DNA of 32,000 nucleotides, from the NCBI GenBank assembly GCA_030614005.1, contig JAUWKS010000001.1, positions 90,001 to 122,000 on the forward strand, given 5' to 3'. The notes under the pieces were generated by a model. That model searched no databases and was not told where the DNA came from. It worked only from the letters and a program-made list of their open reading frames with translations. The stretch is from Candidatus Heimdallarchaeota archaeon (lineage in GTDB: Archaea > Asgardarchaeota > Heimdallarchaeia > JABLTI01). The translations under genes and the position numbers were made by a program. Of the stretch, positions 507 through 21,623 are shown piece after piece (positions within the stretch are counted from its first letter, which is position 1; each line of letters starts with the position of its first letter).

Positions 507-1769
507 ATGGGAAAGCTAAAAAGAAATACGAAAATATCATTGGCAGTTCTTTTTCTAGCGCCAATAATCCTATCAACAATCGGATTGTCGGTTTATGGTG
601 TTTTGGATAAAGTATTGTATCAAAGGTCTTTATTTGCTCAAGGTGAGATTGTCATTCTAAATGATGGAGATTTTTCCAAAAGATATTCTTTTCCAGGTTC
701 GGGAACTGCTGAAGATCCATATCTAATTGAGAATTATTGCCTTGATGACCCGGATACAACTGCAATCGTTATTAGAGGAACAACAAAACATTTCGTTATT
801 AGAAATTGCTCGATTAAAAAACATGGACAACCGATATTTATTTCTAATATAGGATTTAATACTGGGACAGTAATTAACAATACCTTCTTTGAAGATATGA
901 CATTAGATAAAGAGGTAAAATTCAAAGACTCTCGAGAGAATGATAGGAACTGGTTTGTCCATAATTGTGTTTTACCATTCGAAGATGGGTTTACTTTTAT
1001 TATTAATGCACCAGGAATAAGAATTGAGAATAATCATTTTCGATGTAGTCTAGAAGGAACTGAATATGGAAGAACGGGTTTAAGTGTACTGTCTTCAGAT
1101 TATTCTGTTATTAATAATAATACTTTCTCATTTTTTTATAGAGGTATAAATCTACTCGAATCTCTTTATTTGACTGTAGTAAATAATTTCTGCTACAATA
1201 ATTCAGATGGTATATTTATTGATGAAATTGAAGAATCTCTTATAATGAATAATAAATGTACTAAAAACGGAGTAGGGTTGGTAGCTTTGTATTGCGAAAA
1301 AGTGCTTTTTATTACAAATAATCTTAGTTATAATAGACACTGTGGTCTTAACTTGATTAGACGAGTCATCTCATGTCAAATCAGAGGTAATCTCATTGAG
1401 GGAAATGGAAGATACGGACTTTATTGTGATGCTATTAACAGTAATATTACTTACAATTACTTTAGTTCAAATAGTAACTATGCAATTATAACTAGTGAAT
1501 ATAACGCTAATGGGAATTATATTCATCACAATGCTTTCATTGATAATAATTATGAAAGTTTATTACTTGGAAAAAAACAAGCATATGATAATCCATATGA
1601 GGATAACTATCAAAACTACTGGTGTGATGATTATTCAAAAGAAGGGAATTATTGGTCAGATTTAATTTGGAATGAAGATAGTATATATCAAATAGATGGC
1701 GGGAATGCTACAGATCAATATCCATTATTTGAGCCACCAATAATGGAATCTTGGGAGAGATTACATTGA
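507..1769 (+). CDS. Secreted or N-anchored right-handed parallel beta-helix (NosD/CASH, pectin-lyase-like) protein
   Basis: N-terminal basic plus hydrophobic segment; GSGTAEDPYLIEN motif; Asn-rich ~22-aa coils (INNNTF, VVNNFC, IMNNKC, ITNNLS, IRGNLI, ITYNYF, IHHNAF); C-terminal GNYWSD...DQYPL. AGGAG upstream of the ATG. Confidence 0.85.
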   Translation: MGKLKRNTKISLAVLFLAPIILSTIGLSVYGVLDKVLYQRSLFAQGEIVILNDGDFSKRYSFPGSGTAEDPYLIENYCLDDPDTTAIVIRGTTKHFVIRNCSIKKHGQPIFISNIGFNTGTVINNTFFEDMTLDKEVKFKDSRENDRNWFVHNCVLPFEDGFTFIINAPGIRIENNHFRCSLEGTEYGRTGLSVLSSDYSVINNNTFSFFYRGINLLESLYLTVVNNFCYNNSDGIFIDEIEESLIMNNKCTKNGVGLVALYCEKVLFITNNLSYNRHCGLNLIRRVISCQIRGNLIEGNGRYGLYCDAINSNITYNYFSSNSNYAIITSEYNANGNYIHHNAFIDNNYESLLLGKKQAYDNPYEDNYQNYWCDDYSKEGNYWSDLIWNEDSIYQIDGGNATDQYPLFEPPIMESWERLH

Positions 1770-16781: not shown

Positions 16782-16968
16782 CCCCTTAAATTGGTTTATA
16801 ATCTATGTTTATAATAGACAAATTACTGAAGAATAGATTGACCTACAATTATTAAAACATTTAGAGAGATAAGCAAACATCTCAGATAAATTTAATTATA
16901 TCATACTGTTTGTCAATAATACTCACATATTTACGAATGAGATTTACTAGCAAGGGTTTAAGAGAAGC

Positions 16969-17394
16969 ATGCCAAAAAAACCACGAAGAAAAATTGTCAG
17001 ATTGTTCATCAGTCATTCCTGGGACTATTCTGAGGATTACGTAAATCTTGTGAATTTTCTTCGAAGAATTGAAGATTTCGACTTCTATAATTATAGCGTA
17101 CCAAAGCATAATCCTCTTTCTGCAGATACTGACAAGAAGCTTCTAGATGAATTATGTGATCAATTACGAGGGTGTCATATACTAATTGTCTTGGCTACAA
17201 TGAGACCGACTTATAGTGAGTGGATTCAAAAAGAAATTTTGATTGCCAATGTTTATGACAAAGCTGTTTTAGCAATTCTTCCTCGTGGGCAGAAGAGGGT
17301 TGCAAGTATTATTTCGACTTACTCTGATGAAATAGTAAAATGGAACACCAAATCTATTCGAAAAGCGATAATCAAAATTATGGCTAAACGATAA
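16969..17394 (+). CDS. Stand-alone TIR-domain protein (MTH538/DUF1863, Thoeris ThsB-like)
   Basis: RLFISHSW, YNYSVPKHNPL, CHILIVLA, YSEWIQKEI with the putative catalytic Glu (codon 17233-17235), VLAILPRG, IVKWNTKSI. Confidence 0.9.
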   Translation: MPKKPRRKIVRLFISHSWDYSEDYVNLVNFLRRIEDFDFYNYSVPKHNPLSADTDKKLLDELCDQLRGCHILIVLATMRPTYSEWIQKEILIANVYDKAVLAILPRGQKRVASIISTYSDEIVKWNTKSIRKAIIKIMAKR

Positions 17395-17401
17395 ATCTAT
17401 T

Positions 17402-17983
17402 CTAAGTTGAAGGAAAAGTTCCTGATATTAATGCTGGGTTTAATGCTATAATTACTATCATTAAAATCAGTCCTAATGTATAAAGTATGATTAAACTTAC
17501 TGGTATCCAAATCTCAATGTTAGTTAAACGGCGATGTTTCTGTTTTGTATCTTGTGCTTTCCAAAGTTTCCACTCAGTTAAAAATCCTTGAACAGGTAAC
17601 CTAGCTTCAACTGCGTTAATAACTCTGTACTTGCAACTATTCAACCCCTTATAGTATTGAATTAAAAGCACCCAACCAACACAGAACGAAATACCCACAA
17701 TTAGAATTGTTGGAACAAAGATGAATAATTGAGAATTACCAAAGAGTGCACCCATAGCAACGAAGAGAAAGCTGTTAGCGGTAAGAAAGAAACTATTTGT
17801 TGTAGCTCTCCGAGCACTAACATTGTCAGCCATTTGCACATACAACTTATATTGTTCAAAAGTATAGCTTACATCAAACGACATTTCTTCTTGGGGATTG
17901 AATAACTCATCAAAAGGGTCAGGTGTTTTTGTTGGGTCTTGGTCCGATTCTAGGTCTTGATCAGGTTTCGTTGTTTTTGTCAA
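17402..17983 (-). CDS. Small membrane protein resembling the RipA-like octameric membrane (pore-type effector) family
   Basis: TTG start with GGTGA RBS. Motif EQYKLYVQMADNVSARRATTNSFFLTANS, two TMs, W..LI.YYK.LNS.KY.VI..VE.RLP...F..EW, then a third hydrophobic segment. Family label is recalled, not searched. Confidence 0.7.
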   Translation of the reverse strand: MTKTTKPDQDLESDQDPTKTPDPFDELFNPQEEMSFDVSYTFEQYKLYVQMADNVSARRATTNSFFLTANSFLFVAMGALFGNSQLFIFVPTILIVGISFCVGWVLLIQYYKGLNSCKYRVINAVEARLPVQGFLTEWKLWKAQDTKQKHRRLTNIEIWIPVSLIILYTLGLILMIVIIALNPALISGTFPST

Positions 17984-18085
17984 TTAATTCACCGTGGAAC
18001 GACTAATTTTTTCTTCTACTTTAGCAAGCTATTCTCTCTTAATAAATTTTTAGAGAGAAAATCGAAGAGACAATATATCGCATCA

Positions 18086-18093
18086 TTTATATA
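18086..18093 (+). promoter_or_regulatory. Candidate TATA box for the 18143-22969 operon
   Basis: TTTATATA about 50 nt upstream of ATG 18143; AAGGAG RBS at 18134-18139. Confidence 0.4.
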
Positions 18094-18142
18094 TATTGGA
18101 AGGAATTGATAAATTTGAAGAAAGGTAGAAGGAAAGGAGTTA

Positions 18143-19492
18143 ATGAATACAAGGGTACTAGATGAAGGAAAAACAGTGAAATGGAATAGTATATCGATTA
18201 TTCTATGTTTTATAACAATTCTAATTCTTACTATCTGTGTATTTAGTCCAATTATTAGGGTTGAATCAATCGCACATAGTATGTGGGGGGGCGCTCCTTT
18301 AGATTATAATTATAGACAATTTATTTATTTTACAGGTCAACGTTTGATTATTTCTGTTTCAGGCGAAACTGGAGAAATTTTAGAGGATAGTTGGATACAA
18401 TGGAATAATGATAGAAATAAGCAATTTACAAGTGCTAACACAGTCTTACTATCAATTGCTTACATTTTAATCCTTATTGGGTCAATACTTTGGACAATAT
18501 TCGAAACCCATAAGAGATTAGATACAAAGAAAAAATTTACTAGAAAGCTATGCGTACTATCTATTCTTTCTATAGCAGGTAGTATAACAGGGGTTACATC
18601 GTGCATTTATTTACTCTTGATAGATTTTACTCCTTATGAGAGTTACTTGGATGCAAGAATGCAATTGGGGTACTATTTGTCATTTATCCTCTTTTGTTTA
18701 TATTTTATTTTAGGATTACTAAATATCAAAAGAATAAAGTCTCTAAAAGAAAAAATAGATTTTGAATCCCTTAAAATAAATACTACTATTTTACGAGAAA
18801 GAATGAAAAAAAATAAAAAAACTATATCAACATCATTTTTTGTTTTAGGGTTTAATTTAATAGGTCTTGTTCTTTTGTTATTTTTTCCTTTAATGAAACT
18901 TAAATATATGGAATTTTCAGAAAGTGATTATTATTATACAGAATATATTCGCATCGAACGAATATTCTTCAGTGGTTTTATTAGACAAACTCGAATAAAT
19001 ACGATAATTGATTTGTACGTTGATTATGTATTGGATAGAAGTAACTATAGTTGGTGGAGGTATACTTACATTGTAAATCCTGAGAGTCGTTGGAGCAATT
19101 TTCCGACTGTCACTACAATTTTAATAATATCTGCAGTGATTATTTCAATTTTAATCTCAATAGCTTTGTTTTATCTCGCTACCCATAAACTATCTAAAAT
19201 TAGATATAATTGTGTACCTTATCTTTTAGCCTCGTTCTTTATTGTTGCGGGAGTAATTGGAATTATTGGTTTAAGTTTTATCATTCCGTATAAAACATTT
19301 CTAAATATTGAAGGATCACAGCCTTTTCAATTCACTTTTAGTTGGTACTTTGGATTCATTCTTTTCATAGTCAATACCTTAATTGGAATAGGAATATTCT
19401 TCGGAACTTCTCATAAAGGCTATGAAAATGCAAAAAAGATCACTCTTTGGGGTTTTGGGATGAATGAAGGAGATACTACAAATGAAAACTAA
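18143..19492 (+). CDS. Polytopic membrane protein made of two tandem 4-TM units
   Basis: Eight hydrophobic segments. Each half has TM1, a long loop, TM2, TM3, a PY-containing short loop and an aromatic-led TM4. Confidence 0.8.
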   Translation: MNTRVLDEGKTVKWNSISIILCFITILILTICVFSPIIRVESIAHSMWGGAPLDYNYRQFIYFTGQRLIISVSGETGEILEDSWIQWNNDRNKQFTSANTVLLSIAYILILIGSILWTIFETHKRLDTKKKFTRKLCVLSILSIAGSITGVTSCIYLLLIDFTPYESYLDARMQLGYYLSFILFCLYFILGLLNIKRIKSLKEKIDFESLKINTTILRERMKKNKKTISTSFFVLGFNLIGLVLLLFFPLMKLKYMEFSESDYYYTEYIRIERIFFSGFIRQTRINTIIDLYVDYVLDRSNYSWWRYTYIVNPESRWSNFPTVTTILIISAVIISILISIALFYLATHKLSKIRYNCVPYLLASFFIVAGVIGIIGLSFIIPYKTFLNIEGSQPFQFTFSWYFGFILFIVNTLIGIGIFFGTSHKGYENAKKITLWGFGMNEGDTTNEN

Positions 19493-21623
19493 AATTAGAT
19501 GTTCTATCATCATAATACTCACTTGTTTCTCCATTTATCCATTTTTTTTGGAAGACAGTGTAGGATGGAATCAAGATTACTCGAGTGATGTTTCAGTTGC
19601 TAGTTTTTCCACACATTCCTGGTTAGCTCATGAAGGATTACTACTATATTCTTCACCCTCAAAAATCGTATGGTTAAGCAATAATATACAACAATATTGG
19701 CATGGGGTTGAGGCACCATATAATGCAGATATTTGTTTGTTATATGATAATATCTCATCAGAAAATTATGGTGATATTGGAGATTTAACATTAAAATTTG
19801 ACAGTACTGGTTCAACTGTTTTGAACGATTCTTTAGCCACTCGAGCTATGGTAGAATACACGAAATTAATTACGGAACTCCAAAAGGAAGAAACCAATTT
19901 TCAAATTGCAGCATTTTATGCAGGAGCTATGACCCATTATATCTCACAAGCTAGCTCTTGGTTCACTCTTTGGAATACAACACTTTGGGGGACTATTGAC
20001 CTTATAAAATATAACCAATATGAAACAGTTATTGAAGAAGGATTAGATGCTACTTCATCCATCGATCCAAGTATCACTTGGAAACATAATTATCTTGAAT
20101 TAAATCCAAATAGCACAGCAGAACTAACTGGTTATGATGCAACTACTACACTAGGTGAAAAATGTTATCCATTTGCAGAATCACTTCAAAATCTTTTCAT
20201 CGAAACGTCCAGTGTTAAGGAATGGGAGAATAGCTACAAGAAGACTGTGGAACTGATTCTATCTTATTCAGTAGAAGCAATTTATGCTGCCTTAGAATCC
20301 GCAATGAATGAGAGTAATTGGAAATATCTTTCAATTCCAGATCCAATTTACAATTTTGATAATGAAACTGCGCATTTGGAAATTCCTGCGTTTACTGTAA
20401 CAGTTAGAGAAAAAACAATTAGCTATAATCTTAATGACAGTTTGACGATACAAGCAAAAGTCTATCTAGTGGATTCTTTTTTTGATGCTCTGAGTGCACA
20501 ATCCTTCCCAAGTATTTCTTCAATAGGATATAATTTAACATTTACCGATGATGCATGGTCATTTCCAAACCAAATGATAAGTGGGTTAGCATCGTATACA
20601 AATTATAATATAATATACAATTTCCAACTTCAAGAATATCCCCCTACATGGAGCAATATCTCTATTGCTGAATTTAATACTGAATATTATTCACTAGAAA
20701 TTAGTAACTTCACTGCCAACTATAACTGGAATGATTGGACATTTTCTGTGGAAAATATTTCTGTTTCGTGCCCAAATATCCCAGAGATAGGTATTGTTGA
20801 CAGTAATGATATTAATTTTGCTGAATGGCAACTTTATACAACAGGAGACTCATATAGTCAATTAACAGGCGTCCAAGCAAAAGATACAGAGGGGAATTTT
20901 TTACAGGGTTCTCTCCTATTCAATGAAACAACTGAAAAATGGTTTTCATACCAAAATGATATTGGCATGGTTTTCAACCATGTCAGGCAAATTTTCTTCA
21001 TTTGTGTTCGATTTAATTTAACTGACGTACCTGTTGGTACATGGAATATAGTTGCTGGAGACTATTCCAATGACTATTTTTTGCCATTTGCTCGTGTTTA
21101 TTCTAATAATACATTCACAATAAGAAATCATTTATCTTTTAGTTCAAAACCAGATATTATTTTTAATGCCGAAAAACTAACAATCAGTGCTTATAACATA
21201 ACAGCTTATGTTGATTACCATAATAACGCAATTGACTATTACGAAATATATGAGAGACTTTACTTGTATGGAGGATATAATAGGTTTGCTAAATTTCGTG
21301 TATTGCCAGATCTTGATCCTAACGACTGGATAAATGACCCTCCATTTGGTGATTTGTCTTGGAATGAAGAGAAGGAGAGTTGGTACTTTGAAGATAGGGA
21401 TATTAGTTACTTGCAACCAGGGATGTATTATGTTAGATGCTCTTTCAGGACTATGAATACAAATTACACAGTTGGTACAGTAGGTTCACCTTCTGATATC
21501 TTTGTAATAGTAAATCCTTATGCACGAACGATTGTATTGGTCTCCTCTGTAATTATATTAACTTCAGTTATTATTGCACCTATTATTATCTTAGTTCGTA
21601 AGAAAACTAGCAGCAATAGATGA
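19482..21623 (+). CDS. Large secreted, C-anchored protein with an N-terminal degenerate Zn-dependent phospholipase C / S1-P1-like domain
   Basis: ORF track starts at 19464; ATG 19482 follows AAGGAG and begins the signal peptide. Mature N-terminus WNQD...THSWLA, GVEAPY, FYAGAMTHYISQ; many N-x-S/T sequons; C-terminal TM plus RKK. Confidence 0.7.
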   Translation: MKTKIRCSIIIILTCFSIYPFFLEDSVGWNQDYSSDVSVASFSTHSWLAHEGLLLYSSPSKIVWLSNNIQQYWHGVEAPYNADICLLYDNISSENYGDIGDLTLKFDSTGSTVLNDSLATRAMVEYTKLITELQKEETNFQIAAFYAGAMTHYISQASSWFTLWNTTLWGTIDLIKYNQYETVIEEGLDATSSIDPSITWKHNYLELNPNSTAELTGYDATTTLGEKCYPFAESLQNLFIETSSVKEWENSYKKTVELILSYSVEAIYAALESAMNESNWKYLSIPDPIYNFDNETAHLEIPAFTVTVREKTISYNLNDSLTIQAKVYLVDSFFDALSAQSFPSISSIGYNLTFTDDAWSFPNQMISGLASYTNYNIIYNFQLQEYPPTWSNISIAEFNTEYYSLEISNFTANYNWNDWTFSVENISVSCPNIPEIGIVDSNDINFAEWQLYTTGDSYSQLTGVQAKDTEGNFLQGSLLFNETTEKWFSYQNDIGMVFNHVRQIFFICVRFNLTDVPVGTWNIVAGDYSNDYFLPFARVYSNNTFTIRNHLSFSSKPDIIFNAEKLTISAYNITAYVDYHNNAIDYYEIYERLYLYGGYNRFAKFRVLPDLDPNDWINDPPFGDLSWNEEKESWYFEDRDISYLQPGMYYVRCSFRTMNTNYTVGTVGSPSDIFVIVNPYARTIVLVSSVIILTSVIIAPIIILVRKKTSSNR

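What the first reader, a model, noticed from the sequence alone, without database searches (positions are those of the whole stretch)
16969..17983. Candidate minimal defence module: ThsB-like TIR enzyme tail-to-tail with a pore-type membrane effector
Seen: a stand-alone TIR gene with intact FISHS and SEWIQKE motifs and a small 2-3 TM gene end 7 bp apart on opposite strands. Each has its own upstream region, and the pair is inserted among unrelated secreted-protein genes. Known: Thoeris ThsB TIR domains sense infection and make NAD-derived signals that activate a separate effector (SIR2-SLOG, TM-Macro or caspase-like); small oligomeric TM proteins serve as membrane-disrupting effectors in several anti-phage systems. 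No SIR2, SLOG, Macro or SAVED gene is present here, and the TM protein has no obvious ligand-binding domain, only conserved soluble helices (YKLYVQMADNVSARR; YK.LNS.KY.VI..VE) and an acidic N-tail. Inference: a Thoeris-like variant in which a TIR signal, or direct contact, gates a RipA-like octameric pore, in a probable archaeon and in an unusual convergent layout. This is the best candidate for an undescribed system in the window.
Basis: partly seen in the sequence, partly recalled or inferred. Interest (0 to 1): 0.78.

Follow-up and report, generated by a model that had tools for sequence, protein, structure and literature searches.

The report
TIR enzyme plus RipA-like membrane effector
Two tail-to-tail genes in a Heimdall-type Asgard archaeon encode a Thoeris-type TIR signalling enzyme and a three-helix membrane protein of the 8xMP/RipA family; the two travel together across archaea and bacteria and most likely form an anti-virus system that a 2025 preprint listed as a candidate but nobody has tested.

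Summary
A 141-aa ThsB-type TIR gene (16969-17394, +) and a 193-aa three-helix membrane gene of Pfam family 8xMP/RipA (17402-17983, -) end 7 bp apart.

The adjacency is not chance. Each family occurs once in this 3.6-Mb genome. All 15 strongest 8xMP hits in 399 Asgard genomes have a ThsB TIR within 2.5 kb, in convergent, co-directional or divergent order. So do 36 of the 80 best relatives across prokaryotes.

The genome shows no SIR2, SLATT, DUF2270 or membrane-bound Macro effector.

The pair is not undescribed. Yirmiya et al. (bioRxiv, December 2025) list about 100 "TIR + 3TM" pairs as a putative, untested Thoeris type. One listed TIR is identical to a TIR I found next to an 8xMP gene.

A TIR shown there to make canonical cADPR for a SLATT effector (type VII) nests among the 8xMP-coupled TIRs. 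8xMP itself is unrelated to SLATT or DUF2270 by profile comparison.

This scan reached the same reading six times before on other genomes.

Best reading (about 0.6): the TIR makes an ADP-ribose-derived signal on infection, and the signal opens the membrane effector.

Local points are the Asgard host, the genus-wide convergent layout and the absence of a defence island.

The parts
16969..17394 (+). thsB-like gene: stand-alone 141-aa TIR enzyme. The putative catalytic Glu is E89 in the W85-I-Q-K-E89 motif.
   Evidence: Pfam ThsB_TIR PF08937, E 8.5e-13. PADLOC ThsB models reach E 6.4e-8. F13, S15, H16, W18, W85, I86 and E89 are invariant in 15 relatives. It is 33% identical to the type VII Thoeris TIR of Pseudohongiella. 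It is the only ThsB_TIR hit in the genome.
17402..17983 (-). 8xMP/RipA-family membrane protein, 193 aa, the putative effector. It has a disordered acidic N-tail, a conserved cytosolic helix, a TM1-TM2 hairpin, a basic cytosolic helical loop and TM3.
   Evidence: Pfam 8xMP PF24838, E 1.2e-35, covering 135 of 136 profile positions. AlphaFold2 helices span 38-81, 89-127, 133-145 and 152-181, with mean pLDDT 76.5. Family-wide invariant residues are Q44, Y45, Y48, D53, S56, R58, R59, W104, Y111, K118, E126, E137 and E157. It is the only PF24838 hit in the genome.
17395..17401 (.). 7-bp spacer between the two convergent stop codons.
   Evidence: Read directly from the sequence. The same 7- to 15-bp convergent junction is kept in seven other genomes of the genus.
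16782..16968 (+). AT-rich upstream region of the TIR gene, a presumed separate promoter.
   Evidence: Sequence only. It lies between the divergent S8 subtilase gene and the TIR start. Promoter function is inferred.
17984..18142 (-). Upstream region of the 8xMP gene, shared with the divergent gene at 18143. GGTGA lies 5 nt before the TTG start.
   Evidence: Sequence only. Promoter and ribosome-binding roles are inferred.

Best explanation
This is a two-gene Thoeris-type antiviral module. The stand-alone TIR protein senses infection and converts NAD+ into an ADP-ribose-derived second messenger, most plausibly a cyclic ADPR isomer. The signal binds the conserved, basic cytosolic face of the three-helix 8xMP/RipA protein. 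That protein sits in the membrane as a ring oligomer and then opens or disrupts the membrane, stopping the infected cell before virus is released. Shown here: the family assignments, the intact catalytic motif, the single-copy adjacency, the recurrent co-localisation across archaea and bacteria in several gene orders, and the exchange of 8xMP with verified Thoeris effectors beside closely related TIRs. Inferred: signal production, signal identity, ligand gating, oligomeric state and the defence phenotype.
For: (1) Family assignment comes, and the invariant W85/E89. (2) The own genome has one ThsB_TIR hit and one 8xMP hit, and they are adjacent. (3) In Asgard, 15 of the 15 strongest 8xMP hits have a ThsB_TIR within 2.5 kb, and 14 are directly adjacent. 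They fall in six family-level groups and are convergent, co-directional in either order, or divergent, so linkage survives rearrangement. (4) Of the best 80 relatives across prokaryotes, 36 have an adjacent TIR, usually overlapping or within 40 bp, drawn from at least three deep TIR clades. (5) Within the genus the pair sits in two unrelated contexts, so it moves as a unit. (6) The TIR coupled to the SLATT effector of type VII Thoeris (Pseudohongiella) is reported to make canonical cADPR. It nests inside the 8xMP-coupled clade and is 63% identical to the 8xMP-coupled TIRs of L082 and L089, with support 100. (7) In Table S1 of the preprint, one TIR cluster is paired with '3TM', caspase, CMP hydrolase, SLATT or DUF2270 effectors, which puts the 3TM protein in the effector slot. 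(8) Other 8xMP members sit beside a pentapeptide-TIR_2 fusion, a caspase-like protease, EAD4 or NB-ARC proteins. (9) The family occurs on 31 plasmids, including a ThsB_TIR-8xMP operon on Halorubrum lacusprofundi pHLAC01 next to a second TIR and an IS element. (10) No alternative effector was found in the genome: no SIR2_2, SLATT_1, DUF2270 or TIR_2, and the only Macro protein is a soluble 171-aa protein on another contig.
Against: No member of the TIR + 8xMP pairing has been tested. The preprint tried none of its 3TM candidates and warns that in unverified types the TIR may itself be the toxic NADase. 8xMP has no recognisable nucleotide-binding domain and no solved relative. Its invariant cytosolic residues are also kept in the 44 of 80 relatives that lack a ThsB TIR, so they may serve assembly rather than ligand binding. 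The window holds no defence island. The convergent layout gives no operon-level coupling. No RNA data were available.
Confidence: 0.6

Rival explanations
1. The roles are reversed. The TIR is the toxic effector (an NAD+-depleting NADase), and the 8xMP membrane protein is the sensor, anchor or regulator that activates it, for example on envelope perturbation by a virus.
For: The preprint raises this possibility for its unverified types. TIR NADase effectors are established in other defence systems (background knowledge). 8xMP lacks a known ligand-binding domain.
Against: The TIR is a minimal 141-aa ThsB-type domain. It falls in the same clade as TIRs shown to be signal generators for SLATT and CMP-hydrolase effectors. 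8xMP pairs with three deep TIR clades and with caspase, EAD4 and NB-ARC proteins, as interchangeable effectors do.
Confidence: 0.15
2. Gating is by direct contact. The TIR protein binds the cytosolic face of the 8xMP ring, with or without catalysis, and releases or opens it on infection, in the manner of a toxin-antitoxin or sensor-pore complex.
For: Adjacency is tight and the two proteins diverge in a partly correlated way (Spearman 0.52 over non-independent pairs).
Against: Near-identical TIR clades work with unrelated effectors (SLATT, caspase, CMP hydrolase), which fits a diffusible signal better than a co-evolved interface. In L033 the TIR is 94% identical to ours but the 8xMP only about 70%. 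The catalytic Glu is invariant.
Confidence: 0.08
3. The pair has a resident, non-defence role. The TIR-made nucleotide regulates an 8xMP channel for membrane or envelope homeostasis or stress signalling in this archaeal genus.
For: The pair is chromosomal, single-copy and syntenic in close relatives, lies among ordinary genes and has separate promoters. Many 8xMP members have no TIR neighbour. NCBI names the family after 'RipA'. From memory, and unverified here, that is a Francisella inner-membrane protein linked to LpxA (searches give that protein's biology only).
Against: Within the same genus the pair also occurs in an unrelated context. Its distribution in Asgard is patchy, at 20 of 399 genomes. 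It occurs on plasmids and beside IS elements and other immune-type genes. All of this is typical of defence cassettes.
Confidence: 0.12
4. The adjacency of two unrelated genes is chance.
For: The convergent orientation means there is no operon, and there is no defence island.
Against: The two single-copy families are neighbours in a 3.6-Mb genome. Adjacency holds for 15 of 15 strong Asgard hits and 36 of 80 loci across prokaryotes.
Confidence: 0.02

Closest known systems
Putative 'TIR + 3TM' Thoeris configuration (Yirmiya et al., bioRxiv 10.64898/2025.12.03.692087, Fig. 1C and Table S1)
   Same: It pairs a ThsB-type TIR of the FISHSW-type clusters with a small three-TM protein. The row ga0247831_100024678 ('3TM') carries a TIR domain identical to the L069 TIR, whose neighbour is an 8xMP gene. 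About 100 such rows are in the held part of the table.
   Different: The preprint does not name the family and tested none of these pairs. Its data are mostly bacterial. Here the host is a Heimdall-type Asgard archaeon, and the genes are convergent with separate upstream regions rather than in an operon.
Type VII Thoeris (ThsB + ThsH, a SLATT membrane effector; signal canonical cADPR)
   Same: It combines a TIR with a small membrane effector that lacks a classical sensor domain. The type VII TIR of Pseudohongiella is 33% identical to ours and nests inside the 8xMP-coupled TIR clade.
   Different: ThsH is a 294-aa SLATT_3 + SLATT_1 protein. 8xMP shows no profile similarity to it (hhalign probability 0.6%) and no SLATT Pfam hit.
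Type V Thoeris (ThsB + ThsF, DUF2270; signal 3'cADPR)
   Same: The effector is a small three-TM protein modelled as a ring with basic pockets between protomers. Its topology matches that inferred for 8xMP.
   Different: There is no sequence or profile similarity (no PF10028 hit; hhalign probability 0.2% against one Asgard DUF2270). DUF2270 is nearly absent from Asgard (1 of 399 genomes), against 20 of 399 for 8xMP.
Type I and type II Thoeris (ThsA SIR2-SLOG; two-TM Macro effector)
   Same: The TIR family is ThsB-type, and the logic is a signal generator plus a separate effector.
   Different: The pair has no SIR2, SLOG or Macro domain. The genome has no SIR2_2 hit and only one soluble Macro protein elsewhere.

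Membership tests
ThsB-type TIR (Pfam PF08937) | Score above the curated Pfam threshold over the whole domain | tested here: met
   49 bits against a cut-off of 21.2, covering profile positions 1-99 of 100.
ThsB-type TIR (Pfam PF08937) | Conserved catalytic glutamate in the W-x-x-x-E helix | tested here: met
   W85 and E89 are invariant in 15 relatives. The motif aligns with the W/E motif of the solved TIR 8fz9.
8xMP / RipA family (Pfam PF24838) | Score above the curated threshold; small protein with three membrane helices | tested here: met
   122.7 bits against a cut-off of 30. The AlphaFold2 model has three long hydrophobic helices.
8xMP / RipA family (Pfam PF24838) | Homo-octameric assembly | not testable with these tools
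   At most four copies can be modelled, and no solved relative was found.
Thoeris (general definition) | TIR gene genetically linked to a dedicated effector gene | tested here: met
   15 of 15 strong Asgard hits and 36 of 80 loci across prokaryotes have the two families adjacent.
Thoeris (general definition) | Infection-triggered production of an ADPR-derived signal that activates the effector; protection against viruses | not testable with these tools
   This needs infection assays and LC-MS. No member of this pairing has been tested.
Type VII Thoeris | Effector carries SLATT domains (ThsH) | tested here: not met
   P0002 has no SLATT Pfam hit at E<=1. hhalign of A1 against the Pseudohongiella ThsH gives probability 0.6%. 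The only trace is NCBIfam SLATT_1 at E 0.38.
Type V Thoeris | Effector is DUF2270 (ThsF) | tested here: not met
   There is no PF10028 hit. hhalign of A2 against an Asgard DUF2270 gives probability 0.2%, a weak test with a single-sequence template.
Type I / II Thoeris | SIR2-SLOG or TM-Macro effector next to the TIR or elsewhere in the genome | tested here: not met
   No SIR2_2 hit was found in the genome, which is 90% complete. The only Macro protein is soluble, 171 aa, and on another contig.
Putative 'TIR + 3TM' Thoeris type (Yirmiya et al. Table S1) | The '3TM' label corresponds to the 8xMP family | tested here: met
   The TIR sequence of a '3TM' row is identical to the L069 TIR, which is adjacent to an 8xMP gene. 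Only one row was checked in this way.

The most novel reading that the evidence does not exclude
8xMP is a ligand-gated membrane channel opened by a TIR-made cyclic ADPR isomer. In this Heimdall genus the pair is a vertically kept chromosomal pathway with two separate promoters. Cyclic-ADPR-to-channel signalling would then already exist in the closest archaeal relatives of eukaryotes, possibly with a role beyond virus defence.
Probability: 0.1. Interest if true: 0.8.

Novelty: new member of a known kind. Interest (0 to 1): 0.4.

Why it matters
If the pair works as proposed, 8xMP/RipA is a further Thoeris effector class. The family has at least 4,700 sequence clusters but no solved structure, no known ligand and no tested function in this setting.

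The TIR phylogeny narrows the signal to test first. Canonical cADPR is the leading candidate, because a verified cADPR-producing TIR nests among the 8xMP-coupled ones.

The Asgard occurrences show that TIR-plus-membrane-effector modules are established in Heimdall-type archaea. The Halorubrum lacusprofundi plasmid operon offers a cultivable archaeal host in which to test it.

It is not a new discovery. The pairing is catalogued in a 2025 preprint, and this scan has met it six times before.

Tried and rejected
- **8xMP oligomer model:** Complex prediction on four copies of 8xMP (residues 20-193, alignment A1) returned no verdict, with a score of 0.39 against a mark of 0.42. It counts neither for nor against oligomerisation.
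- **Solved relatives of 8xMP:** phmmer and a profile search of PDB sequences found nothing meaningful. Foldseek and VIA-align gave only generic helical bundles, with Z up to 10, which is normal for helical models.
- **ESM Atlas feature search:** it gave only weak leads, with a best score of 0.80 and PycTM at 0.75.
- **Origin of the names '8xMP' and 'RipA':** literature searches failed to find a founding paper. Searches returned only the Francisella RipA/LpxA biology. I could not test whether that protein belongs to PF24838.
- **Homology of 8xMP to SLATT or DUF2270:** rejected at profile level.
- **Expression data:** no RNA holder was listed among the sequencing runs.
- **PADLOC v2:** it has no model that matches 8xMP. 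The only hit is a CARF/4TM model at E 0.019.
- **Neighbour hits in PADLOC:** the hits of the neighbouring methyltransferase and S8 subtilase are generic domain matches, not systems.
- **Mirror-tree correlation:** the correlation between TIR and 8xMP identities (Spearman 0.52) uses non-independent pairs and is only descriptive.
- **Call errors:** two calls failed on coordinates and were redone.

Full report
**What is there.** The window is low in GC (about 32%). Its close protein relatives carry NCBI names from Candidatus Heimdallarchaeota.

At 16969-17394 (+) lies a 141-aa ORF and at 17402-17983 (-) a 193-aa ORF, with their stop codons 7 bp apart. The first is a ThsB-type TIR: Pfam PF08937 at E 8.5e-13, and several PADLOC ThsB models down to E 6.4e-8. 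The second matches Pfam PF24838, 'octameric membrane protein family (8xMP)', at E 1.2e-35 over the whole profile. NCBI calls its homologues 'RipA family octameric membrane protein'.

The TTG start of the membrane gene is supported by conserved N-terminal residues in homologues and by a GGTGA five bases upstream.

**Anatomy of the two proteins.** In an alignment of 15 TIRs of this clade, F13, S15, H16, W18, W85, I86 and E89 are invariant. A profile of that alignment aligns the W...E motif with that of a solved TIR, 8fz9. The enzyme therefore looks catalytically intact.

The AlphaFold2 model of the membrane protein has mean pLDDT 76.5. It shows a disordered acidic tail and a long helix (38-81) whose first half is soluble and whose second half is TM1. 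A second long helix (89-127) runs from TM2 into the cytosol, followed by a short helix (133-145) and TM3 (152-181). Lys and Arg cluster before TM1 and between TM2 and TM3, so the N-terminus and the large loop should be cytosolic (inference from the positive-inside rule).

Across 30 diverse members the invariant residues are Q44, Y45, L47, Y48, V49, D53, S56, R58, R59, W104, Y111, L114, K118, E126, L129, P130, E137, E157 and P161. Almost all lie on that cytosolic face. No solved structure resembles the protein by sequence, profile or fold.

**Is the adjacency meaningful?**
- *Own genome.* The assembly is 3.6 Mb in 126 contigs and 90% complete. It has exactly one PF24838 hit and one PF08937 hit, and they are this pair.
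- *Asgard.* In 399 Asgard genomes, 8xMP passes the cut-off in 20 and ThsB_TIR in 112. All 15 strongest 8xMP hits (87 bits or more) have a ThsB_TIR hit on the same contig within 2.5 kb, and 14 are immediately adjacent.
- *Gene order.* The order differs between lineages. It is convergent in this genus. TIR precedes 8xMP in G121 and G351, 8xMP precedes TIR in G033, G044 and G068, and the genes are divergent in G089. Linkage has therefore survived rearrangement.
- *All prokaryotes.* A search of one genome per prokaryotic species found 270 relatives. Among the best 80, 36 have a ThsB-like TIR ORF next to the 8xMP gene, usually overlapping or within 40 bp, and most often upstream on the same strand.
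- *TIR clades.* These TIRs fall into at least three deep clades.

Within the genus, three relatives share our gene context of MFS, 8xMP, TIR and S8 subtilase. Five others carry the pair in an unrelated context. The pair therefore behaves as a unit.

**Relatives without a ThsB TIR.** The 44 remaining loci are mostly actinomycetes. Their neighbours include a pentapeptide-TIR_2 fusion, a caspase-like protease, pentapeptide proteins and an EAD4 protein. Others are plain genes such as TetR, MscS and radical SAM.

**Plasmid copies.** 8xMP genes occur on 31 plasmids, one of them beside an NB-ARC protein. On Halorubrum lacusprofundi pHLAC01 a ThsB_TIR-8xMP operon lies next to a second TIR protein, an annotated cyclase-domain protein and an IS element.

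**Is there another effector for the TIR?** I found none. The genome gave no SIR2_2, TIR_2, DUF2270 or SLATT_1 hit, although the SLATT_1 search rang in no control genome and is therefore weak. The only Macro protein is a soluble 171-aa protein on another contig, beside a peptidase gene. The window's other genes are not defence genes.

**What is known.** Yirmiya et al. (bioRxiv 10.64898/2025.12.03.692087, December 2025) surveyed TIR neighbourhoods and proposed 29 Thoeris configurations. They verified types V to XI.

The held part of their Table S1 lists about 100 TIRs whose putative effector is called '3TM', and none was chosen for testing. One such row carries a TIR domain identical to the TIR of locus L069 (a Limnohabitans MAG), whose neighbour is an 8xMP gene. 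Their '3TM' effector is therefore the 8xMP/RipA family, at least for that row.

Type VII in that paper pairs a TIR with a SLATT protein and signals with canonical cADPR. I fetched the Pseudohongiella nitratireducens locus. Its TIR matches the table's sequence and is 33% identical to ours. Its effector is a 294-aa SLATT_3 + SLATT_1 protein with no profile similarity to 8xMP.

In a tree of 56 TIRs, this SLATT-coupled TIR sits inside the 8xMP-coupled clade. It is sister to two 8xMP-coupled TIRs at 63% identity, with support 100. The same TIR cluster in Table S1 is also paired with caspase (type IV), CMP hydrolase (type VIII) and DUF2270 (type V) effectors. This exchange of effectors is what places 8xMP in the effector slot.

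DUF2270 has the same three-TM plan but shows no profile similarity. It is almost absent from Asgard, at 1 of 399 genomes.

**Mechanism.** The best reading is a Thoeris-type pathway. The TIR detects infection and makes an ADPR-derived messenger. The messenger binds the conserved basic cytosolic face of an oligomeric 8xMP ring, and the ring then breaches the membrane. Canonical cADPR is the first candidate for the signal, because of the nested type VII TIR. N7-cADPR and other isomers are alternatives, because related TIRs serve type IV and type V systems.

These steps are inferred. What is shown is the family membership, the intact active site and the genetic linkage.

The rivals are:
- reversed roles, with the TIR as NADase effector, which the preprint itself flags for its unverified types;
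- gating by direct contact;
- a resident physiological role;
- chance adjacency, which the counts exclude.

**Verdict.** The system is not undescribed: it is a new Asgard member of a catalogued but untested Thoeris configuration. This scan reached the same conclusion on six other genomes.

The local particulars are the Heimdall host and a convergent layout kept across the genus. That layout is also seen in two actinobacterial loci. The pair has a single-copy chromosomal location outside any defence island.

Noticed in passing
L033 (Heimdall MAG) compared with window 16969-17983: In one close relative the TIR is 94% identical to ours, but the 8xMP only 69-77%. The changes are concentrated in the cytosolic loop after TM2 (about residues 100-150) and include loss of the otherwise near-invariant P130. 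The effector evolves faster than the enzyme, or an allele was swapped.
   Followed up: partly
window 18143-21623: Two genes, a 449-aa multi-pass membrane protein and a 719-aa secreted or anchored protein with no Pfam hit, lie between the 8xMP gene and the MFS gene here and in L003. They are absent at that position in L033 and L034, where MFS abuts 8xMP. This is an insertion or deletion polymorphism within the genus.
   Followed up: partly
L114 (Halorubrum lacusprofundi ATCC 49239 plasmid pHLAC01, record positions 36057-39580): A cultivable haloarchaeon carries a ThsB_TIR-8xMP operon beside a divergent 282-aa TIR protein, an annotated adenylate/guanylate-cyclase-domain protein and an ISH3-like transposase. 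It looks like a small defence island and would make a practical test system.
   Followed up: partly
L040, L049, L054, L058 and plasmid hit H12: 8xMP genes without a ThsB neighbour sit next to a pentapeptide-TIR_2 fusion (Kitasatospora), a caspase-like C14 protease (Mycobacterium), pentapeptide-repeat proteins (Methanotrichaceae), an EAD4 protein (Coleofasciculus) and an NB-ARC protein (Rhizobium plasmid). The family may serve several kinds of conflict system.
   Followed up: partly
G081:C31:4853-10102 (same genus): One genome of the genus has a second 8xMP gene with two ThsB_TIR genes 2-5 kb away, in addition to the convergent pair.
   Followed up: no
G085:C56:7752-8282, G083:C4:7576-8070, G084:C73:34565-34882: Weaker 8xMP-like hits (45-59 bits, some in longer reading frames) in the same genus have no listed TIR neighbour. 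They may be a divergent paralogous subfamily.
   Followed up: no
window 626-718: ARAGORN calls a 93-nt 'tRNA-Pyl' (anticodon CTA) that lies inside the 420-aa ORF at 507-1769. It is probably a false positive.
   Followed up: no
Asgard phylum scans: ThsB_TIR hits occur in 112 of 399 Asgard genomes, many inside reading frames of about 800 aa in one family. 8xMP occurs in 20 genomes and DUF2270 in only 1.
   Followed up: no
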